Of a DNA stretch of 64,000 bases, positions 13,635-54,334 are shown piece by piece (positions within the stretch are counted from its first letter, which is position 1; each line of letters begins with the position of its first letter). The position numbers and the translations under genes are program-made. The notes under the pieces are model-generated. The model was not told the DNA's origin. It searched no databases and was given only the letters and a program-made list of their open reading frames with translations. The DNA is from an uncultured Verrucomicrobiae bacterium. Its GTDB lineage: Bacteria; Verrucomicrobiota; Verrucomicrobiia; Chthoniobacterales; JAFAMB01. The stretch covers positions 165,149 through 229,148 of the forward strand of contig CAWEXO010000009.1 of NCBI GenBank assembly GCA_963813025.1, written 5' to 3'.

Positions 13635-15031
13635 CTAAGAAACTAAATCCGTTGCTGGCTCTAAAGGCGTGAGTTGGAAGCCGAATTCTTTAGCTCGTTT
13701 GCTGAGATTGTGAAGTAGGCGGTCTTTGTACTTTTCTTCATAGTAGGTTTGGCCTTGCTCGACGTAGGCGGCGCCGAACTTGAGCATGCGATAGAACAAG
13801 CGTGCGAGTTTGTGAGCCCCGGCGTTAATGGCCGTGGGTGCGCCCAGTCGGGCTTTGATGCGGCGGATAAAGGCCCCAATGGCGGTCTTGCTTTGCATCG
13901 CTCCTTGGGCCGCCAGGCGGAACATCGCCGCGGCGCGATTCTTGGTTTTTCTGGGTCTGGAACTGAGAAGTTTGCCTCCGCTGATGCGATTGTCCGGGCA
14001 GAGTTTGAGCCAGGAACAAAAGTGTTTTTCGCTTTTCCAACAGTTCATGTCTAAACCCGTTTCGCGAAATGATGACTTCCACCGCCAGGGTGCTCAAGCC
14101 AGGCAGACGAGTCAGATCGACTCCGCAAACGCTGGCCAGATAGGCTTGACGTTGCAGTTGCCAGGCGAACTTGGGCCGAACGTGCTTTCAAAGCGCCGCT
14201 TTGCTCGAGGAATTTGTTCAAAATCGAGTTTGGTCTCGAATTGCTCAAGTTGTTGCTCAATCTTGTTTTCACATTCGGTGATCTTAAGCTGATAGGCATC
14301 ATAGAGTTCGAGCGCCGTTTGCAAGGCGAAGAGATGCTCGGCTCGGTAATCTCCTTCTAAAGCCTTAACGATCTGTTCGGTGGATGCCTTGACTTGAGGG
14401 TGTTTCATCTGGGCAAGCTTGAGCGCATCGCGTTCTCCGGCCAAGATCGCCCGAATCATGGCCATACCGGTGTAGCCGGTGATGTCGCTCAAGACTCGAT
14501 GGATTTGGATGTTCATTTCGGTTAAGGCCTTCTGCATGCGTAAAACATGGCTGCTGCAGTCTTTGACTAAGGTGTCACGCAGGCGCAGAAAGCTGCGCAA
14601 AATGCAGACTTCGTCCTTTGGTCGGAACGAGCCGTTTAAAAGCCCAAAGGTGTGGAACTGTTGAAGCCATTGGCAGTCGGAGACATCGCTTTTGCGACCG
14701 GGCAGATTCTTCACATGAGCAGCATTGACCAATTTTACCTCCAAGCCTCTCTGCTCCAGAATCTGGAATACCGGAATCCAATAAACCCCGGTTGATTCCA
14801 TCACCACCGTCTCAATGTGATGTTCATTGAGCCAGTCGGCTAGCCGGTGCAGATCGCTGGTAAAAGGGCCAAACTTACGGATATTTTCCTCGAGCTGCGA
14901 TCTTCGGGAATGGCCACGAGGTGAAAATTGGCTCCGATATCGATTCCTGCAGCATTGAGATTGATCCGTTCGAGAACATTTTTGCGGGCTTTTGATTTGC
15001 CCTTGCGGCTGGTCGTGGTTTTCTTTGCCAT
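13635..15031 (-). pseudogene. IS110 DEDD recombinase, split by about 3 frameshifts
   Basis: AGIDIG, VMESTGVYW, GRKSDVSDCQWL, RISGG Ser loop, AHKLARLFY. Confidence 0.88.
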
Positions 15032-15339: not shown

Positions 15340-15537
15340 CTAGAGATCGTCTCAGAATGCCGCACTGTCCTGCGCTGGTAGGGCGAAAATTTATTCGAGC
15401 GCAGGCGAGAACTTGTTTGAGCCATCTGGAGCGGGTGGCTCACCCAAGCGTCTGGCTCAAACAAGTTCTCGCCAAGGCTCGAATAAATTTTCGCCCTACC
15501 GGCGCAGGACCAAAAACGCGTTGAGACATGTCTCTAG
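15340..15537. repeat. MITE/REPIN-like ~200-bp palindrome containing family A copy 2
   Basis: CTAGAGA..GTCTCA and TGAGAC..TCTCTAG ends; GGTAGGGCG..CGCCCTACC inner arms. Confidence 0.8.
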
Positions 15538-48706: not shown

Positions 48707-50789
48707 TTAAAAGCTGAAACTAATCGTACTGGTAACACCGTTCGCGTCGTAGTTCTTTCGACCCAGTTGTCCTTGGTAACCCACGTAGACGGAAATCCGT
48801 TGGTTTAATAGAACCCCGACTCCGGCATTGATGATGGCGCTGTCGTGCCCTTCATTGGGGCCAAAGAAAGTCGCTGTCGCTCCGCCTAAGGCAGGAGCGC
48901 TGACAGTTATGGGCAGAGCCGAGTATTTGAACTCATGTTCCCAGGCGGCAGTGACGGAAGGAATCACCAAGAAATTCCCGACATGCCAGGTGTAAGAGGG
49001 CTGTAGGCCCAGGTCGGTTCTCCAGGATTCTTCGGAATCCTCATGGATCTGTAAGGGGATCAGTGAACCTTTTTCGGAGAACCCGTTGATATGGACGTTG
49101 GTGTATTGCACCGCGCCCGTGGGTCCCACGGTAAAATTGCCAAAAGAGAAGTTGTAGCCGAGGTCGAGGAAAGTGCTGAATTCGTAGCCATCGGTGCTGC
49201 CGCTGGCTGGCCCGAGCAGCCCCTGCCGCCTTGTGTCGTAGGAATTGTAGGCGCCGAAGGCGGCCGTGTTGAGGTAAAAGCCGTGGTCAAAGTAGGTTGC
49301 GTAAAGACCGAACCGTCCGGTGTCGACGTCGATATTCCCTGAGGGTTGCAGGGATGTCCAGGTATGGGCGTAAGAACCGAAGATGCCCAGAACGAAGTGA
49401 TCGGTGATCCTGTAATCAATACCTGTCGACACTCCGCCGGTAGTGAAGTCGTAGCCCTTTGCGAAGTGATCGGTATCGACTGACACAAAATCGCCCCAGC
49501 CATTCACCCAAACACCCCAGCGATTTTGGGGGGTAGGCTGAAAGACGGGGGGTGGTGCAACCCCTTTTCCTTCTCCTTTACCTTCCCCTATAGTCGCCTT
49601 GCCCTCGGGCGGAGGCGGCGGAGCCGGAAGCGGGGACGCAAAGCCCGTTGATCCCTGTTGAATCTGCGTCATGCGATCATCCAGATTAAACCTCAGGGAA
49701 TTGGCTCCCGAAAAGGAGATTTCAAAGAGAGAGGTGAGCTGTTCCGCCGTCGGATCGAGAATTGCAACTACCTCCGCCGGCGGCAAAGGCGCTTCTGGAT
49801 TGACGGGCGGAAGGGGTTCCGGAATAACCTCAGTGATTGGGGGTTTTGGAGTTGGTGTTGGCGTTGGCGGGGGCGGTGGCGGAGTCGGCGTGGGCGTGGG
49901 CGTGGGGGCCGGTGTGGGTGTAGGCGCCGGCGTGGGCGTAGGCGTATGCGCTGCGTAGACCAGGGCCACTCCATTTGGCGCGTAGACGTCGATCCGTTGC
50001 AGATTGGCATTGTTATTCAAAGAATCGTTCACCTGGGAGAACTCGCCGCTCCGCGTGCTAGTGCTGTGAAGGACTTCGAAGGCATTCCCGGCGGAGGGAC
50101 GGAAATTATTCAGGGAACTCACGGCCAGGGTTCCGTCCAAACTGGCGGTCCCGCCAACCTGCACGTGATCATATTCCTCCCCATTGATGCCTCCAACTCC
50201 CAAGGCAAGCGTCCCGCCCGACCCTTGCGTATAATTGCCACCGACATTGATGGTCAGCGGCAAGCCGGTCTGGAAGCTTGTACTGCGTAAGGTTCCTCCG
50301 TTCAAAAAAACATCTCCTGTGCCTAGCGCCATGTATGTTTCTTGAGTAGACCCCTCCGGTACCCCGACAGCGAGAGTACCACCATCGATACTGGTTCCAC
50401 CACTGTAGGTGTTGTCGGCGGTGAGGATAGTCGTGCCGGCAAGGACGTTGACCTCCCCATTCCCGGGCCCGAAACTCGGGTCGGAGTCAATCCTCGTCGC
50501 GAATGTATAGTCGGTACCGGTGTAATTAAAGGGAACCCGCCGTAGCGACGCTCTCTGCCGCGATTCGGGTCGGATGGAGTGGGTCGGTGTCGAGAATGAC
50601 GGTCCCCGTCGTCGGCACGGTCCCGGTATCCCAATTAGTACCGGTAAACCAGTCATCCGAGGTTATTCCGGTCCAATCCGTTGTCTGCCCAAAGGCGACG
50701 CCAGCTAGGATTATATTCAGGGCCACAGCCATGCCCTGCCGCCGCGTCTGAAACAGGTACAGCCGAGAAAAGCCATCCCTTGTTTTCAT
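48707..50789 (-). CDS. Autotransporter with short passenger and Pro/Thr linker; frameshift or deletion near 50530-50560
   Basis: Signal peptide, LTADNTYSGGTSIDGGTL repeat, PT-rich linker ~49840-49950, beta-barrel ending ISFSF. Confidence 0.85.
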
Positions 50790-52239: not shown

Positions 52240-52875
52240 ATGCTCTTCGATTTCGAGAAACTACCGCCGCGCGAGCGCTACAAATTGCTTGTTTCCACGA
52301 TCACGCCGCGACCCATCGCCTGGATCGTCAGTCAGAACGTTCACGGCCGTCTCAACGCCGCTCCCTTTTCTTTCTTCAACGCCTTTGCCGGCGATCCGCC
52401 GGTCGTTGGCATCGGCATCGGCAGCCATAAGCCGGGCCGTGCTAAAGACACCCGCGCCAACATTCGCGAGACGCGCCAGTTCGTTCTGAATCTCGTCTCG
52501 CAGGAAGTCGCGGACCGAATGAACATCACCGCCATCGAATTTCCCCCAGAGATTGACGAACTGCAACAAGCCGGCCTGACAACCTGCGCCTCTGTGTACG
52601 TAAAACCCCCGCGCATCGCCGGAAGCCCCGTGTCGCTCGAATGCGAGCTGATGCAGATCGTCGAGTTGGGAAACGAGAACGGTCTGGTGCTGGCCCGTGT
52701 CTTGGCCATGCATGTTTGTGACGAATCCGTTCTCGACGCGCAGAGAAACTACATCGACACGCCCAGCCTGCACCTGATCGGTCGTATGCACGGCAGCGGG
52801 TGGTACGCTCGCACCACAGACCTCTTCGACATGCCCCGCATTCCTTTGAAGGACTGGAATGGAAGTTCCGAATAA
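52240..52875 (+). CDS. Flavin reductase-like FMN-binding protein
   Basis: PRPIAW, NAAPFSFFN, KDTRANIRET, IGRMHG. Confidence 0.92.
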   Translation: MLFDFEKLPPRERYKLLVSTITPRPIAWIVSQNVHGRLNAAPFSFFNAFAGDPPVVGIGIGSHKPGRAKDTRANIRETRQFVLNLVSQEVADRMNITAIEFPPEIDELQQAGLTTCASVYVKPPRIAGSPVSLECELMQIVELGNENGLVLARVLAMHVCDESVLDAQRNYIDTPSLHLIGRMHGSGWYARTTDLFDMPRIPLKDWNGSSE

Positions 52876-52892
52876 ACGAGGCGTCCGGCTTC

Positions 52893-53012
52893 GGTAGGGC
52901 GAAAATTCATTCGAGCGTCAGCGAGAACTTGTTTGAGCCGTCTTGGCTATGGCAACTCCATCGTCCGGCTCGAACGAGTCTTCGCCGAAGGCTCAGATGA
53001 AATTCTCGCCCT
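52893..53012. repeat. Family A REP copy interrupted by IS110; resumes at 54024
   Basis: GGTAGGGCGAAAATTCATTCGAG...AAATTCTCGCC-CT|ACCGG. Confidence 0.85.
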
Positions 53013-53039
53013 TGTACCTTGCCCCACCAACTTTTTTCC

Positions 53040-53260
53040 CTTTTAAAGCCGCCCGCAAGGGCGGAACTCTGGAGGTGAAGAACTTGGCCGAGGGGGGTGG
53101 AAAACTGCTTCGCCCAAAGGTCGGTAGAACCTGTCCGCTAGATTAGTCCACCCTCCTCGTGCCGCACCTTGCAAAAGACCGAACCGTATCTTAGGCCGTT
53201 CCAAACAGGGTTGGAACATGAGCCTGTGTGGACAAGGCTCTGTCGGAAAGGTGCGCGCCC
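53040..53260 (+). ncRNA. IS110 bridge RNA
   Basis: Two stem-enclosed internal loops carrying target guides (CTTCGCCC, CCGCTAG) and donor guides (ACCGTATCT, ACAAG). Confidence 0.8.
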
Positions 53261-53307
53261 AAGCGCTTCATCAAACAAAGAACCAATTCAACGCGAATTC
53301 CTGTCTG

Positions 53308-54001
53308 ATGAAAAAACCTTACTGCATCGGTATTGACCTGGCAAAAGCAACCTTTGACTTTTGCGCGCTTTCCAAAACCGGCACCGGCCCTCTGGCGGGG
53401 GAAGTTCAGCAATGATGCGGCGGGCATCGGAGCATTTTTAGCCCAACTCCAAGCCCGCGGTTGGCCGCTCCGCCAAATCCACTTCGCCTTGGAAGCCACT
53501 GGCGTCTACGGCAAGCAGTTGGTCGCCGCCCTGCACCAGGCAGGCGTTGCGGTCATCGAGTCAGTCTTCTTGGAGCTGATCGCCGCCGATGAGTCTTTAA
53601 GCCGCCAAAGCAAGCTGCTGTGCTCCATTCCCGGTATTGCCCAGCTTACCGCCGCCAAGTTGCTGGCCGAATTGGCCGGTAAAGAGTTCCAATCGGCTCG
53701 CCAACTGGCCGCTTATGCCGGACTCACTCCCGCCGAATGCCGTTCGGGTTTCTCGCGCTACGGCAAAACCGTGCTGTGCAAAATCGGCAACGCCTTCCTG
53801 CGTAAAGCCCTCTATCTGCCTGCCGCCGTGGCCCGTCGTTGGTGCAAACCCATCCGACAATGGGCTGCAGAGCTTGAGTCGCGCAAACTACACTCCCTGG
53901 CCATCCGTGGCGCGATCATGCGCAAACTCCTCCACATTGTTTTCGGCGTTCTTCGCCACCAACAACCCTACAATCCCCGCTTGGCTGCTATCCTCAAATG
54001 A
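53308..54001 (+). pseudogene. IS110 recombinase with frameshift and internal deletion
   Basis: CIGIDLAK, LEATGVY, SIPGIA, AAYAGLTP..CRSG, MRKLL; the KTD..DA segment and coiled coil are absent. Confidence 0.88.
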
Positions 54002-54076
54002 CTTGACATTCAAGACCGTATCTACCGGAACAAGAGATACGTTCTGGAGTTGTCGACCCAGCCCGTCAGACCTTAG

Positions 54077-54334
54077 ATCGGACGGGGAACTACCACGGAT
54101 CAGAGCGCGCTGATCCAGGCGCTGCGATCCGCCCGGCTGGCGGCGGCTTACCTGGATGTAACCGATCCGGAACCGCTTCCCGCGGAACATCCCCTCTGGT
54201 CGACGCCAAACTGTTATATCACTCCGCACACTAGCGGCGGGCACATCAATGAGTCCGTCCGGCTGGTCAGACACTTCCTCGATAATTTGCGGCGCTTCGA
54301 GCAAGGCATACCGCTCATCAACCGGGTGTGGTGA
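54077..54334 (+). pseudogene. D-2-hydroxyacid dehydrogenase C-terminal remnant
   Basis: IGRGTTTDQSAL..AYLDVTDPEPLPAEHPLW..ITPHTSG. Confidence 0.8.

What the first reader, a model, noticed from the sequence alone, without database searches (positions are those of the whole stretch)
53011..54023. IS621-like IS110 with a fully readable bridge RNA programmed for the local REP
Seen: removing 53013-54023 restores TCTCGCC-CT-ACCGG, the end of the family A REP (TTTCGCC-CT-ACCGG at 15489-15502). The circle junction is ACCGTAT-CT-TGTAC and creates TTGACA-N17-TACCTT. In the left end, stem 53089-53101/53147-53159 encloses CTTCGCCC (53108-15, left target) and CCGCTAG (53135-41, reverse complement CTAGCGG versus CTACCGG, 1 mismatch). 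Stem 53164-70/53248-54 encloses ACCGTATCT (53183-91, exact 9-nt left donor) and ACAAG (53232-36, reverse complement of CTTGT). Established: this is the IS621 bridge-RNA layout, and IS621 targets REPs. The recombinase here is internally deleted, so an intact relative elsewhere would be a new programmable recombinase candidate.
Basis: partly seen in the sequence, partly recalled or inferred. Interest (0 to 1): 0.75.

Follow-up and report, generated by a model that had tools for sequence, protein, structure and literature searches.

The report
Broken RNA-guided jumping gene, intact sisters
This is a damaged copy of a known kind of jumping gene that uses a built-in guide RNA to insert itself at the end of a common genomic repeat, and complete sister copies that could still do so lie elsewhere in the same genome.

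Summary
Observation confirmed in full. 53013-54023 is an IS621-type IS110 element at the CT of a GTAG-ended palindromic repeat. Its recombinase is dead: 102 codons are missing, with two of the four DEDD acids, and there is a +1 frameshift. The genome holds 12 copies with both ends, 11 of 12 at TCGCC-CT-ACCGG; 7 encode an intact 336-aa recombinase (DEDD plus serine, about 35% identical to IS621). I add a 7-pair right donor guide, handshake bases, a GNRA hairpin and a natural 7-nt right target guide (12 of 12 copies use GG ends; 95 of 231 empty ends have GG). The same deletion at a second site points to movement in trans. All this is published biology. Two small unexplained points: one guide mismatch arose three times, and a second IS110 family inserts a few bases away in the same repeat end (the scan noted IS110 copies at such a repeat in this genome before). 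No circle or RNA evidence was obtained. New member of a known kind.

The parts
52892..53010 (.). GTAG-ended long palindromic repeat (REP/REPIN-like, about 125 bp); its 3' end is the left target TCTCGCC (53004-53010)
   Evidence: inverted arms; dispersed family, 231 empty TCGCCCTACC ends in the genome against 7.9 expected
53011..53012 (+). CT core, left copy
   Evidence: same core at both ends of 12 of 12 two-ended copies
53013..54023 (+). IS110 element, deleted derivative (subfamily B), 1011 bp including one CT
   Evidence: 99.4% identical to a copy on contig C15 with the same deletion
53013..53017 (+). right donor TGTAC (donor positions 10-14)
   Evidence: pairs 7 of 7 with the discontinuous right donor guide
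53015..53020 (+). -10-like box TACCTT of the circle-junction promoter (weak, 3 of 6)
   Evidence: 17-base spacing from TTGACN in 41 of 42 two-ended elements; function inferred
53033..53083 (+). 5' hairpin of the bridge RNA, tipped by CCGCCC-GCAA-GGGCGG (53049-53064), a GNRA tetraloop
   Evidence: fold; loop is GNRA in 54 of the 55 records where the stem was found (87 examined), in four sequence variants
53089..53159 (+). target-binding loop: outer stem, inner hairpin 53118-53132
   Evidence: 6 of 13 outer-stem pairs with a change on both sides
53108..53115 (+). left target guide CTTCGCCC (matches target positions 3-8; position 2 U-G or U-A)
   Evidence: covariation with targets, 116 of 125 against 92.5 +/- 3.3 shuffled
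53135..53143 (+). right target guide CCGCTAG (7 nt, C-C mismatch at target position 11, base 53138) plus handshake bases AT, which pair with donor positions 6-7 after strand exchange
   Evidence: covariation 73 of 85 against 44.9 +/- 3.9; handshake as A81/U82 of IS621 (PMC11208158)
53164..53254 (+). donor-binding loop: outer stem, inner hairpin 53193-53225
53183..53191 (+). left donor guide ACCGTATCT, 9 of 9
53228..53238 (+). discontinuous right donor guide GT-[GG bulged]-ACAAG (7 pairs) plus handshake bases GC (G pairs with target position 7)
   Evidence: 7 of 7 pairs in 47 of 47 records with both parts; GT changes to AT where donor position 14 changes from C to T; same bulge as IS621
53308..54001 (+). 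IS110 recombinase pseudogene: ATG 53308, +1 frameshift near 53388, 306-nt deletion (residues 83-184 of the intact 336) at about 53555, stop 53999-54001
   Evidence: Pfam PF01548 partial and PF02371; alignment to intact copy; a contig of run X1 carries 330 letters in place of 24 at 53555-53580
54003..54008 (+). -35 box TTGACA of the circle-junction promoter
54015..54023 (+). left donor ACCGTAT plus CT core, right copy
54024..54028 (+). right target ACCGG (rest of the repeat end)
   Evidence: same five bases after 12 of 12 two-ended copies

Best explanation
An IS621-type IS110 insertion sequence of a soil Verrucomicrobia-related bacterium. Shown from sequence: ends, CT core, bridge-RNA layout, guide-target covariation, repeat targeting, dead recombinase in this copy, intact sisters. 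Inferred from IS621: the element leaves as a circle; joining the ends builds a sigma-70-type promoter that makes the bridge RNA; a recombinase tetramer uses the target loop (about 6 left plus 7 right pairs) to find the GTAG end of the repeat and the donor loop (9 plus 7 pairs) to hold the circle junction, then exchanges strands at CT, helped by handshake pairs. The repeat gives about a hundred harmless intergenic landing sites. The window copy is non-autonomous: it most likely arrived, or was copied from here, after the deletion, using recombinase from an intact sister, since both subfamilies share the same 14-base donor and target.
For: Ends and targets of 12 copies. Intact protein matches IS621 at E 2.6e-46 and ISCro4, NCBIfam NF033542 above cut-off, both Pfam domains; D10, E62, D104, D107, S248 present in 7 full-length copies. 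Right guide 73/85 v 44.9 shuffled, 0 of 20000; left guide 116/125 v 92.5, 0 of 20000; one pair per guide gives 61/65 v 35.1 and 69/75 v 52.9. Stems: 12 of 35 pairs with changes on both sides v 2.9 shuffled, 1-6 when slid. The RNA model built here finds the matching place upstream of distant IS110 genes. Same 306-nt deletion at two sites whose flanks share only 11 and 5 bases. Trans mobilisation of left end-cargo-right end is shown for ISPpu10 (10.64898/2026.03.19.712850).
Against: No circle junction and no RNA were seen: no RNA run was listed and only contigs could be laid. The -10 box is weak (3 of 6). No intact subfamily-B copy was found, but the assembly is 80% complete, so the helper may be an unassembled B copy. 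10 of 49 records with both parts do not pair 7 of 7. Homologues are kin, so shuffle counts are not probabilities. The two registers of the left-guide test were chosen after looking at the data.
Confidence: 0.9

Rival explanations
1. The element and guides are as described, but the deleted copies never moved in trans: intact B elements inserted at both sites and the deletion was later copied between them by gene conversion, or a B helper now lost or unassembled moved them.
For: Assembly only 80% complete. A third B copy (C12) has a different, larger deletion. A relic on C4 looks like a mosaic of A and B letters, so copies do exchange sequence.
Against: Two copies share one precise 306-nt deletion and differ at only 5 bases and 1 indel; no B copy with a full gene in 3 found; donors and targets of A and B are identical.
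Confidence: 0.3
2. Target choice comes mainly from the repeat's hairpin structure or from protein-DNA contacts; the matches in the left end are secondary.
For: All 12 two-ended copies sit at repeat ends and 85 of 95 empty sites are repeat-like by my crude flags, so sequence and structure cannot be separated in this genome. A structural gate is reported for ISPpu10 (abstract). A relative with a position-11 mismatch has spread to 6 or more copies.
Against: Guides change base for base with targets across homologues. Among ends of the same repeat this family uses only those with GG at positions 13-14, 12 of 12, where 95 of 231 empty ends have GG; the other IS110 family in the same repeat has GG in 4 of 10.
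Confidence: 0.08
3. The frameshift or the guide mismatch of the window copy is a long-read assembly error.
For: The extra base lies in a short C run and the sister copy lacks it.
Against: The guide mismatch also stands in the C4 relic and in two other lineages; the 306-nt deletion is shared with a second locus, so the copy is dead either way. Could not be tested: no reads of this strain.
Confidence: 0.15

Closest known systems
IS621 (Escherichia coli) and its bridge RNA (PMC11208160; PMC11208158)
   Same: DEDD plus serine recombinase; bridge RNA in the long left end with 5' hairpin, target loop, donor loop; CT core; discontinuous right donor guide with a 2-nt bulge; handshake A-U in the target loop and G in the donor loop; junction promoter; inserts at the CCTAC end of a GTAG repeat (IS621 target ATCAGGCCTAC as printed).
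   Different: About 35% protein identity (112 of about 322 columns, counted by hand). Natural right target guide 7 nt (IS621 4 nt; longer ones are known in orthologues). Left guide pairs only positions 2/3-8 and sits in one of two registers one base apart. Different repeat, about 125-bp palindrome. This copy is non-autonomous.
ISCro4 / IS622 (10.1101/2025.05.14.653916; PDB 9T56)
   Same: Same clade and layout; 14-base target and donor recognition; E 1.5e-44.
   Different: ISCro4 is 88% identical to IS621 and tested in human cells; the element here is distant and untested.
ISPpu10 and ISPpu9 of Pseudomonas putida (10.64898/2026.03.19.712850; PMC12288879)
   Same: IS110 elements that target REP repeats; ISPpu10 has a CT core, a junction promoter and acts in trans; ISPpu9 has non-autonomous modules that circularise.
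   Different: ISPpu9 uses an AG core and no junction promoter; no stem-loop gate was tested here; the non-autonomous unit here is an internal deletion that keeps its own bridge RNA.
GTAG-tagged REP repeats (PMC3733652)
   Same: Abundant intergenic palindrome ending in GTAG; reported in Verrucomicrobia (O. terrae).
   Different: Long double-ended palindrome; 3 weak Y1-transposase matches in the genome, none with this repeat end within 1.5 kb, so no RAYT link shown.

Membership tests
IS110 family, IS110 group (IS621 type) | DEDD RuvC-like domain plus Tnp domain with catalytic serine | tested here: met
   Intact sisters: PF01548 and PF02371 above cut-off, NF033542 208 bits v cut-off 140, five catalytic residues aligned to IS621. 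The window copy itself lacks D104 and D107 and scores 114 bits, below cut-off.
IS110 family, IS110 group (IS621 type) | No long terminal inverted repeats, no target duplication beyond a shared dinucleotide core | tested here: met
   CT at both ends, empty site restored exactly, 12 of 12 copies.
IS110 family, IS110 group (IS621 type) | Long left end, short right end, bridge RNA in the left end | tested here: met
   Left end 295 nt, right end 22 nt; two-loop fold.
IS110 family, IS110 group (IS621 type) | Target guides pair and covary with target, donor guides with donor | tested here: met
   Donor covariation rests on one change (position 14) between two clades.
IS110 family, IS110 group (IS621 type) | Handshake guides pair with the opposite substrate after exchange | tested here: met
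   AT after the right target guide in 58 of 59 anchored records (the exception is a spurious anchor, L109); donor-loop G pairs with target position 7 here, but not in the clade whose target has G at 7.
IS110 family, IS110 group (IS621 type) | Promoter formed across the circle junction | tested here: inconclusive
   TTGACN-17-TAYCTT in 41 of 42 two-ended elements, but -10 is 3-4 of 6 and no transcript was seen.
IS110 family, IS110 group (IS621 type) | Circular intermediate and expressed bridge RNA | not testable with these tools
   No RNA holder listed; only low-depth contigs laid.
IS110 family, IS110 group (IS621 type) | Match to the published IS621 bridge-RNA covariance model | not testable with these tools
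   Rfam gave no family above threshold; the published model is not held. My own model finds the matching region of distant IS110s weakly (25.7 bits for a plasmid element closer to IS621).
IS1111 group | Long right end with the guide RNA, 7-17 bp sub-terminal inverted repeats | tested here: not met
   Right end is 22 nt; RNA lies upstream of the gene; group definition from PMC11208160 section 12.
RAYT-associated REP/REPIN | Y1 transposase gene flanked by the repeat | tested here: inconclusive
   3 weak PF01797 matches, 0 of 3 with the repeat end nearby; genome 80% complete.

The most novel reading that the evidence does not exclude
The repeat end is a contested landing site shared out between two unrelated RNA-guided IS110 families by their guides (this family takes GG-tailed and TC-type ends, the other takes TT-type ends with any tail, a few bases away, each insertion destroying the other's site), while this lineage tunes itself down by a recurrent one-base mismatch in the right target guide and throws off deleted copies that keep a bridge RNA and ride on sister recombinases: a natural system for testing guide competition and self-attenuation in bridge recombination.
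Probability: 0.15. Interest if true: 0.55.

Novelty: new member of a known kind. Interest (0 to 1): 0.27.

Why it matters
Modestly. It is a clean, fully annotated, distant (about 35% identity) IS621-type orthologue with 7 intact copies, a natural 7-nt right guide and a small natural series of retargeted guides, so it is ready for the standard plasmid assay. But the mechanism, REP targeting, longer right guides and trans activity are all published, and large orthologue sets have been mined. The two-family sharing of one repeat end and the recurrent guide mismatch are the only points a specialist might not expect.

Tried and rejected
Rfam: nothing near a gathering score. Sequencing runs: no RNA holder listed; one small-share DNA holder; laying 3 runs gave contigs only, no circle joint, no test of the frameshift or mismatch. 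First left-guide test used wrong offsets (105 of 175 v 94.4; 56 of 20000 shuffles as high); redone with the two registers seen in the data, positions 3-7. Exact look-ups of intact proteins found none in the protein collection (one search lacked the start codon), which says nothing on novelty. RAYT link not shown. Idea that the mismatched guide tracks a CTAG variant of the repeat: rejected for this genome, 0 of 59 single-base variants of anchored repeat ends have C to G at position 11 and only 2 TCGCCCTAGCGG sites exist; in a relative the listing was cut, so not settled there. Idea that B copies at TC-type sites prove use of the A guide: rejected, since the B guide's U can pair with either by wobble. 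Linear promoter scan found no promoter in 52800-54100, as expected for a junction promoter. Literature: searches showed no paper on this element or on two IS110 families sharing one repeat end; subscription journals and ISfinder were not searched. Supplements of PMC11208160: 6 of 7 files searched, one cut when stored; the two motifs were not found and the 10 Verrucomicrobia rows do not resemble this protein by eye; its full orthologue database was not visible. No structure prediction or wide protein search was run.

Full report
What is there. All coordinates of the finding read back exactly. The element runs 53013-54023 with CT on both sides; taking it out restores the end of a GTAG-tagged palindrome of about 125 bp. 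That repeat end is abundant: 231 empty TCGCCCTACC sites against 7.9 expected, and 95 TCGCCCTACCGG against 0.9. The left end folds well (z = -3.5, 0 of 200 shuffles); Rfam has no family for it.

Copies in the genome. A search of the laid genome found 12 copies with both ends, one truncated copy with a left end only and one fragment; an RNA model built here finds the same 14 loci and no others. Eleven of the 12 lie at TCGCC-CT-ACCGG, one at TCGCT-CT-ACCGG. Subfamily A has 9 copies, about 99% alike: 7 with a full 336-aa gene, 1 with an 81-nt in-frame deletion, 1 split by an inserted IS3-like element (name from my reading of its frames, not from a library call). Subfamily B, 86% alike to A, has 3 copies, none intact: the window copy, a copy on C15 with the same 306-nt deletion (5 substitutions and 1 indel apart), and a copy on C12 with a larger deletion. 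The deletion removes residues 83-184, with D104 and D107; the window copy also has an extra base near 53388 that stops its frame after 35 codons. The intact protein matches IS621 (E 2.6e-46) and ISCro4, passes NCBIfam NF033542 and has both Pfam domains.

The RNA. With the IS621 numbering from PMC11208158 (passages) the anatomy is complete. Target loop: left guide 53108-15, right guide 53135-41, handshake AT 53142-43, which pairs with donor positions 6-7 after exchange as A81/U82 do. The 5' hairpin ends in a GNRA tetraloop in 54 of 55 records where its stem was found (87 examined), in four variants, which speaks for function as RNA. On 16 de-replicated left ends, 12 of 35 named pairs show a change on both sides (2.9 in shuffles, 1-6 when slid); the structure came from the window sequence and the rows are kin, so this is support, not a probability.

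Covariation. Relatives came from 41 related genomes (5 with a match), 22 loci of the genome collection, labelled mostly as Verrucomicrobia, and 53 metagenome loci. Of 88 records examined, 59 had the target-loop anchor and 29 (partial or distant) did not. The right guide, fixed by a flanking anchor, matches its own target at 73 of 85 non-core positions in 17 distinct pairs (44.9 +/- 3.9 shuffled); 39 of 49 records pair 7 of 7, and 10 of 13 distinct guides do so with their commonest target. Examples: CACAAAG with CTTTGTG, CCCGGAG with CTCCGGG, CTTGTAG with CTACAAG. The left guide matches positions 3-7 at 116 of 125 (92.5 +/- 3.3), allowing two registers one base apart that I chose after seeing the data; a first run with wrong offsets gave a weaker result. 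The right donor guide pairs 7 of 7 in 47 of 47 records and changes with donor position 14. The junction places TTGACN 17 bases before TAYCTT in 41 of 42 two-ended elements.

A natural 7-nt right guide is used. All 12 copies have GG at target positions 13-14, though only 95 of 231 empty ends do (chance about 5e-5 if independent; two copies share 101 bases of left flank and may not be independent). An internal control: a second, unrelated IS110 family (10 copies with a 431-aa frame) inserts in the same repeat end a few bases to the left, with a single shared G, and has GG in 4 of 10, like the background. Longer right guides are already known in orthologues (PMC11208160 section 9).

How it works. 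By inference from IS621: excision or copying out to a circle, junction promoter, bridge RNA, strand exchange at CT into a repeat end. Whether excision is double- or single-stranded is debated (abstracts of PMC13626964 and 10.64898/2026.08.31.748434) and not addressed here. The window copy cannot make an active enzyme; the same deletion at two unrelated sites, with donor and target identical to those of subfamily A, is best explained by movement in trans (my odds about 65%; the rival is gene conversion or an unassembled B helper). Trans activity is shown for ISPpu10 (section 6) and suggested for ISPpu9 modules (passages).

Unexplained. The window copy's guide mismatch (G to C facing target position 11) is absent from 11 of 12 two-ended copies but present in the C4 fragment. 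All 3 distinct right guides that fail to pair 7 of 7 with their commonest target carry this same change, and a tree built without the guides puts them in three separate, well-supported clades (39 of 46 sequences after removing duplicates). In one relative it is fixed in 6 of 6 left ends and the sites still have C at position 11, so it is tolerated. The change lets the guide fold on its own 3' linker (GCTA-GAT-TAGY; seen by eye), which might damp activity; this is post hoc, and two of the three lineages are damaged copies. Also, the two IS110 families lean to different ends: the other family has TT-type left flanks in 10 of 10, this one TC-type in 5 of 12 against 11 of 95 empty sites (Fisher p = 0.017).

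Comparison and verdict. It works like IS621 and meets every sequence-testable feature of the IS110 group; circle and transcript could not be tested. Bridge RNAs are predicted in 85.7% of catalogued IS110-group elements (PMC11208160 section 12), REP targeting is known for IS621, ISPpu9 and ISPpu10, and 72 orthologues have been screened (passages). Earlier notes of this scan describe IS110 copies at a GTAG repeat in this genome with a one-base core; fits them and suggests they concern the second family, which I infer from spacing and core, not from a record match. Papers seen: PMC11208158 passages; PMC11208160 passages, sections 9 and 12, supplement searches; 10.1101/2025.05.14.653916 passages; PMC13626964 and 10.64898/2026.08.31.748434 abstracts; PMC12288879 passages; 10.64898/2026.03.19.712850 abstract and section 6; PMC3733652 passages. 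Preprint supplements were not visible and may list this clade. Verdict: real, correctly read, a new member of a known kind; interest 0.27.

Noticed in passing
G000: C1:107375, C4:4004, C5:141867, C8:161183, C11:76476, C11:83042, C13:93901, C13:132857, C14:434850, C16:83865: A second, unrelated IS110 family (431-aa frame, 10 copies) inserts in the same GTAG repeat end a few bases left of this family's site, sharing a single G; two copies carry a 13-nt tandem duplication of their left end.
   Followed up: partly
G000: C2:76040, C9:94115, C11:491478 and others (467-aa frame): A third IS110 family with about 12 matches and a TAG-like shared end; mostly not at this repeat end, one copy inside the repeat. 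43 IS110 Tnp-domain matches in all.
   Followed up: partly
L007:742-906 (G000:C4:5741-5905, minus): Gene-less bridge-RNA relic: the repeat's internal CTTCGCC is joined to the left target guide, the 5' stem is lost, the donor loop is whole; carries the same guide mismatch and a mix of A and B letters. A contig of run X1 has a similar 3' junction.
   Followed up: partly
window 54077-54334 (+): C-terminal fragment of a D-2-hydroxyacid dehydrogenase (PF02826, E 6.5e-18) right after the element, with a stop just upstream: a truncated gene.
   Followed up: partly
window 52240-52875 (+): Flavin reductase-like gene (PF01613) ends just before the repeat.
   Followed up: yes
window about 13887-14051 (minus): Weak match to the IS110 Tnp domain (G000:C9:179035-179199, E 4.3e-4), probably another IS110 relic.
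   Followed up: no
L050 / L027 (relative G012), left end: Three tandem copies of an 11-nt piece of the element's left end at the left junction; like the duplications in the second family.
   Followed up: no
G000:C13:237818 and C11:733730: Two A copies share 101 identical bases of left flank but have different right flanks: possibly a rearrangement or duplication rather than separate insertions.
   Followed up: no
L058-L089 clade: Left target guide sits one base further along the loop than in this genome's family (core C followed by 2 rather than 3 linker bases) at equal loop length: two natural registers.
   Followed up: partly
window 48707-50656 (minus): Long frame that reads like an autotransporter beta-barrel protein with a Pro-Thr linker (by eye; no library call).
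   Followed up: no
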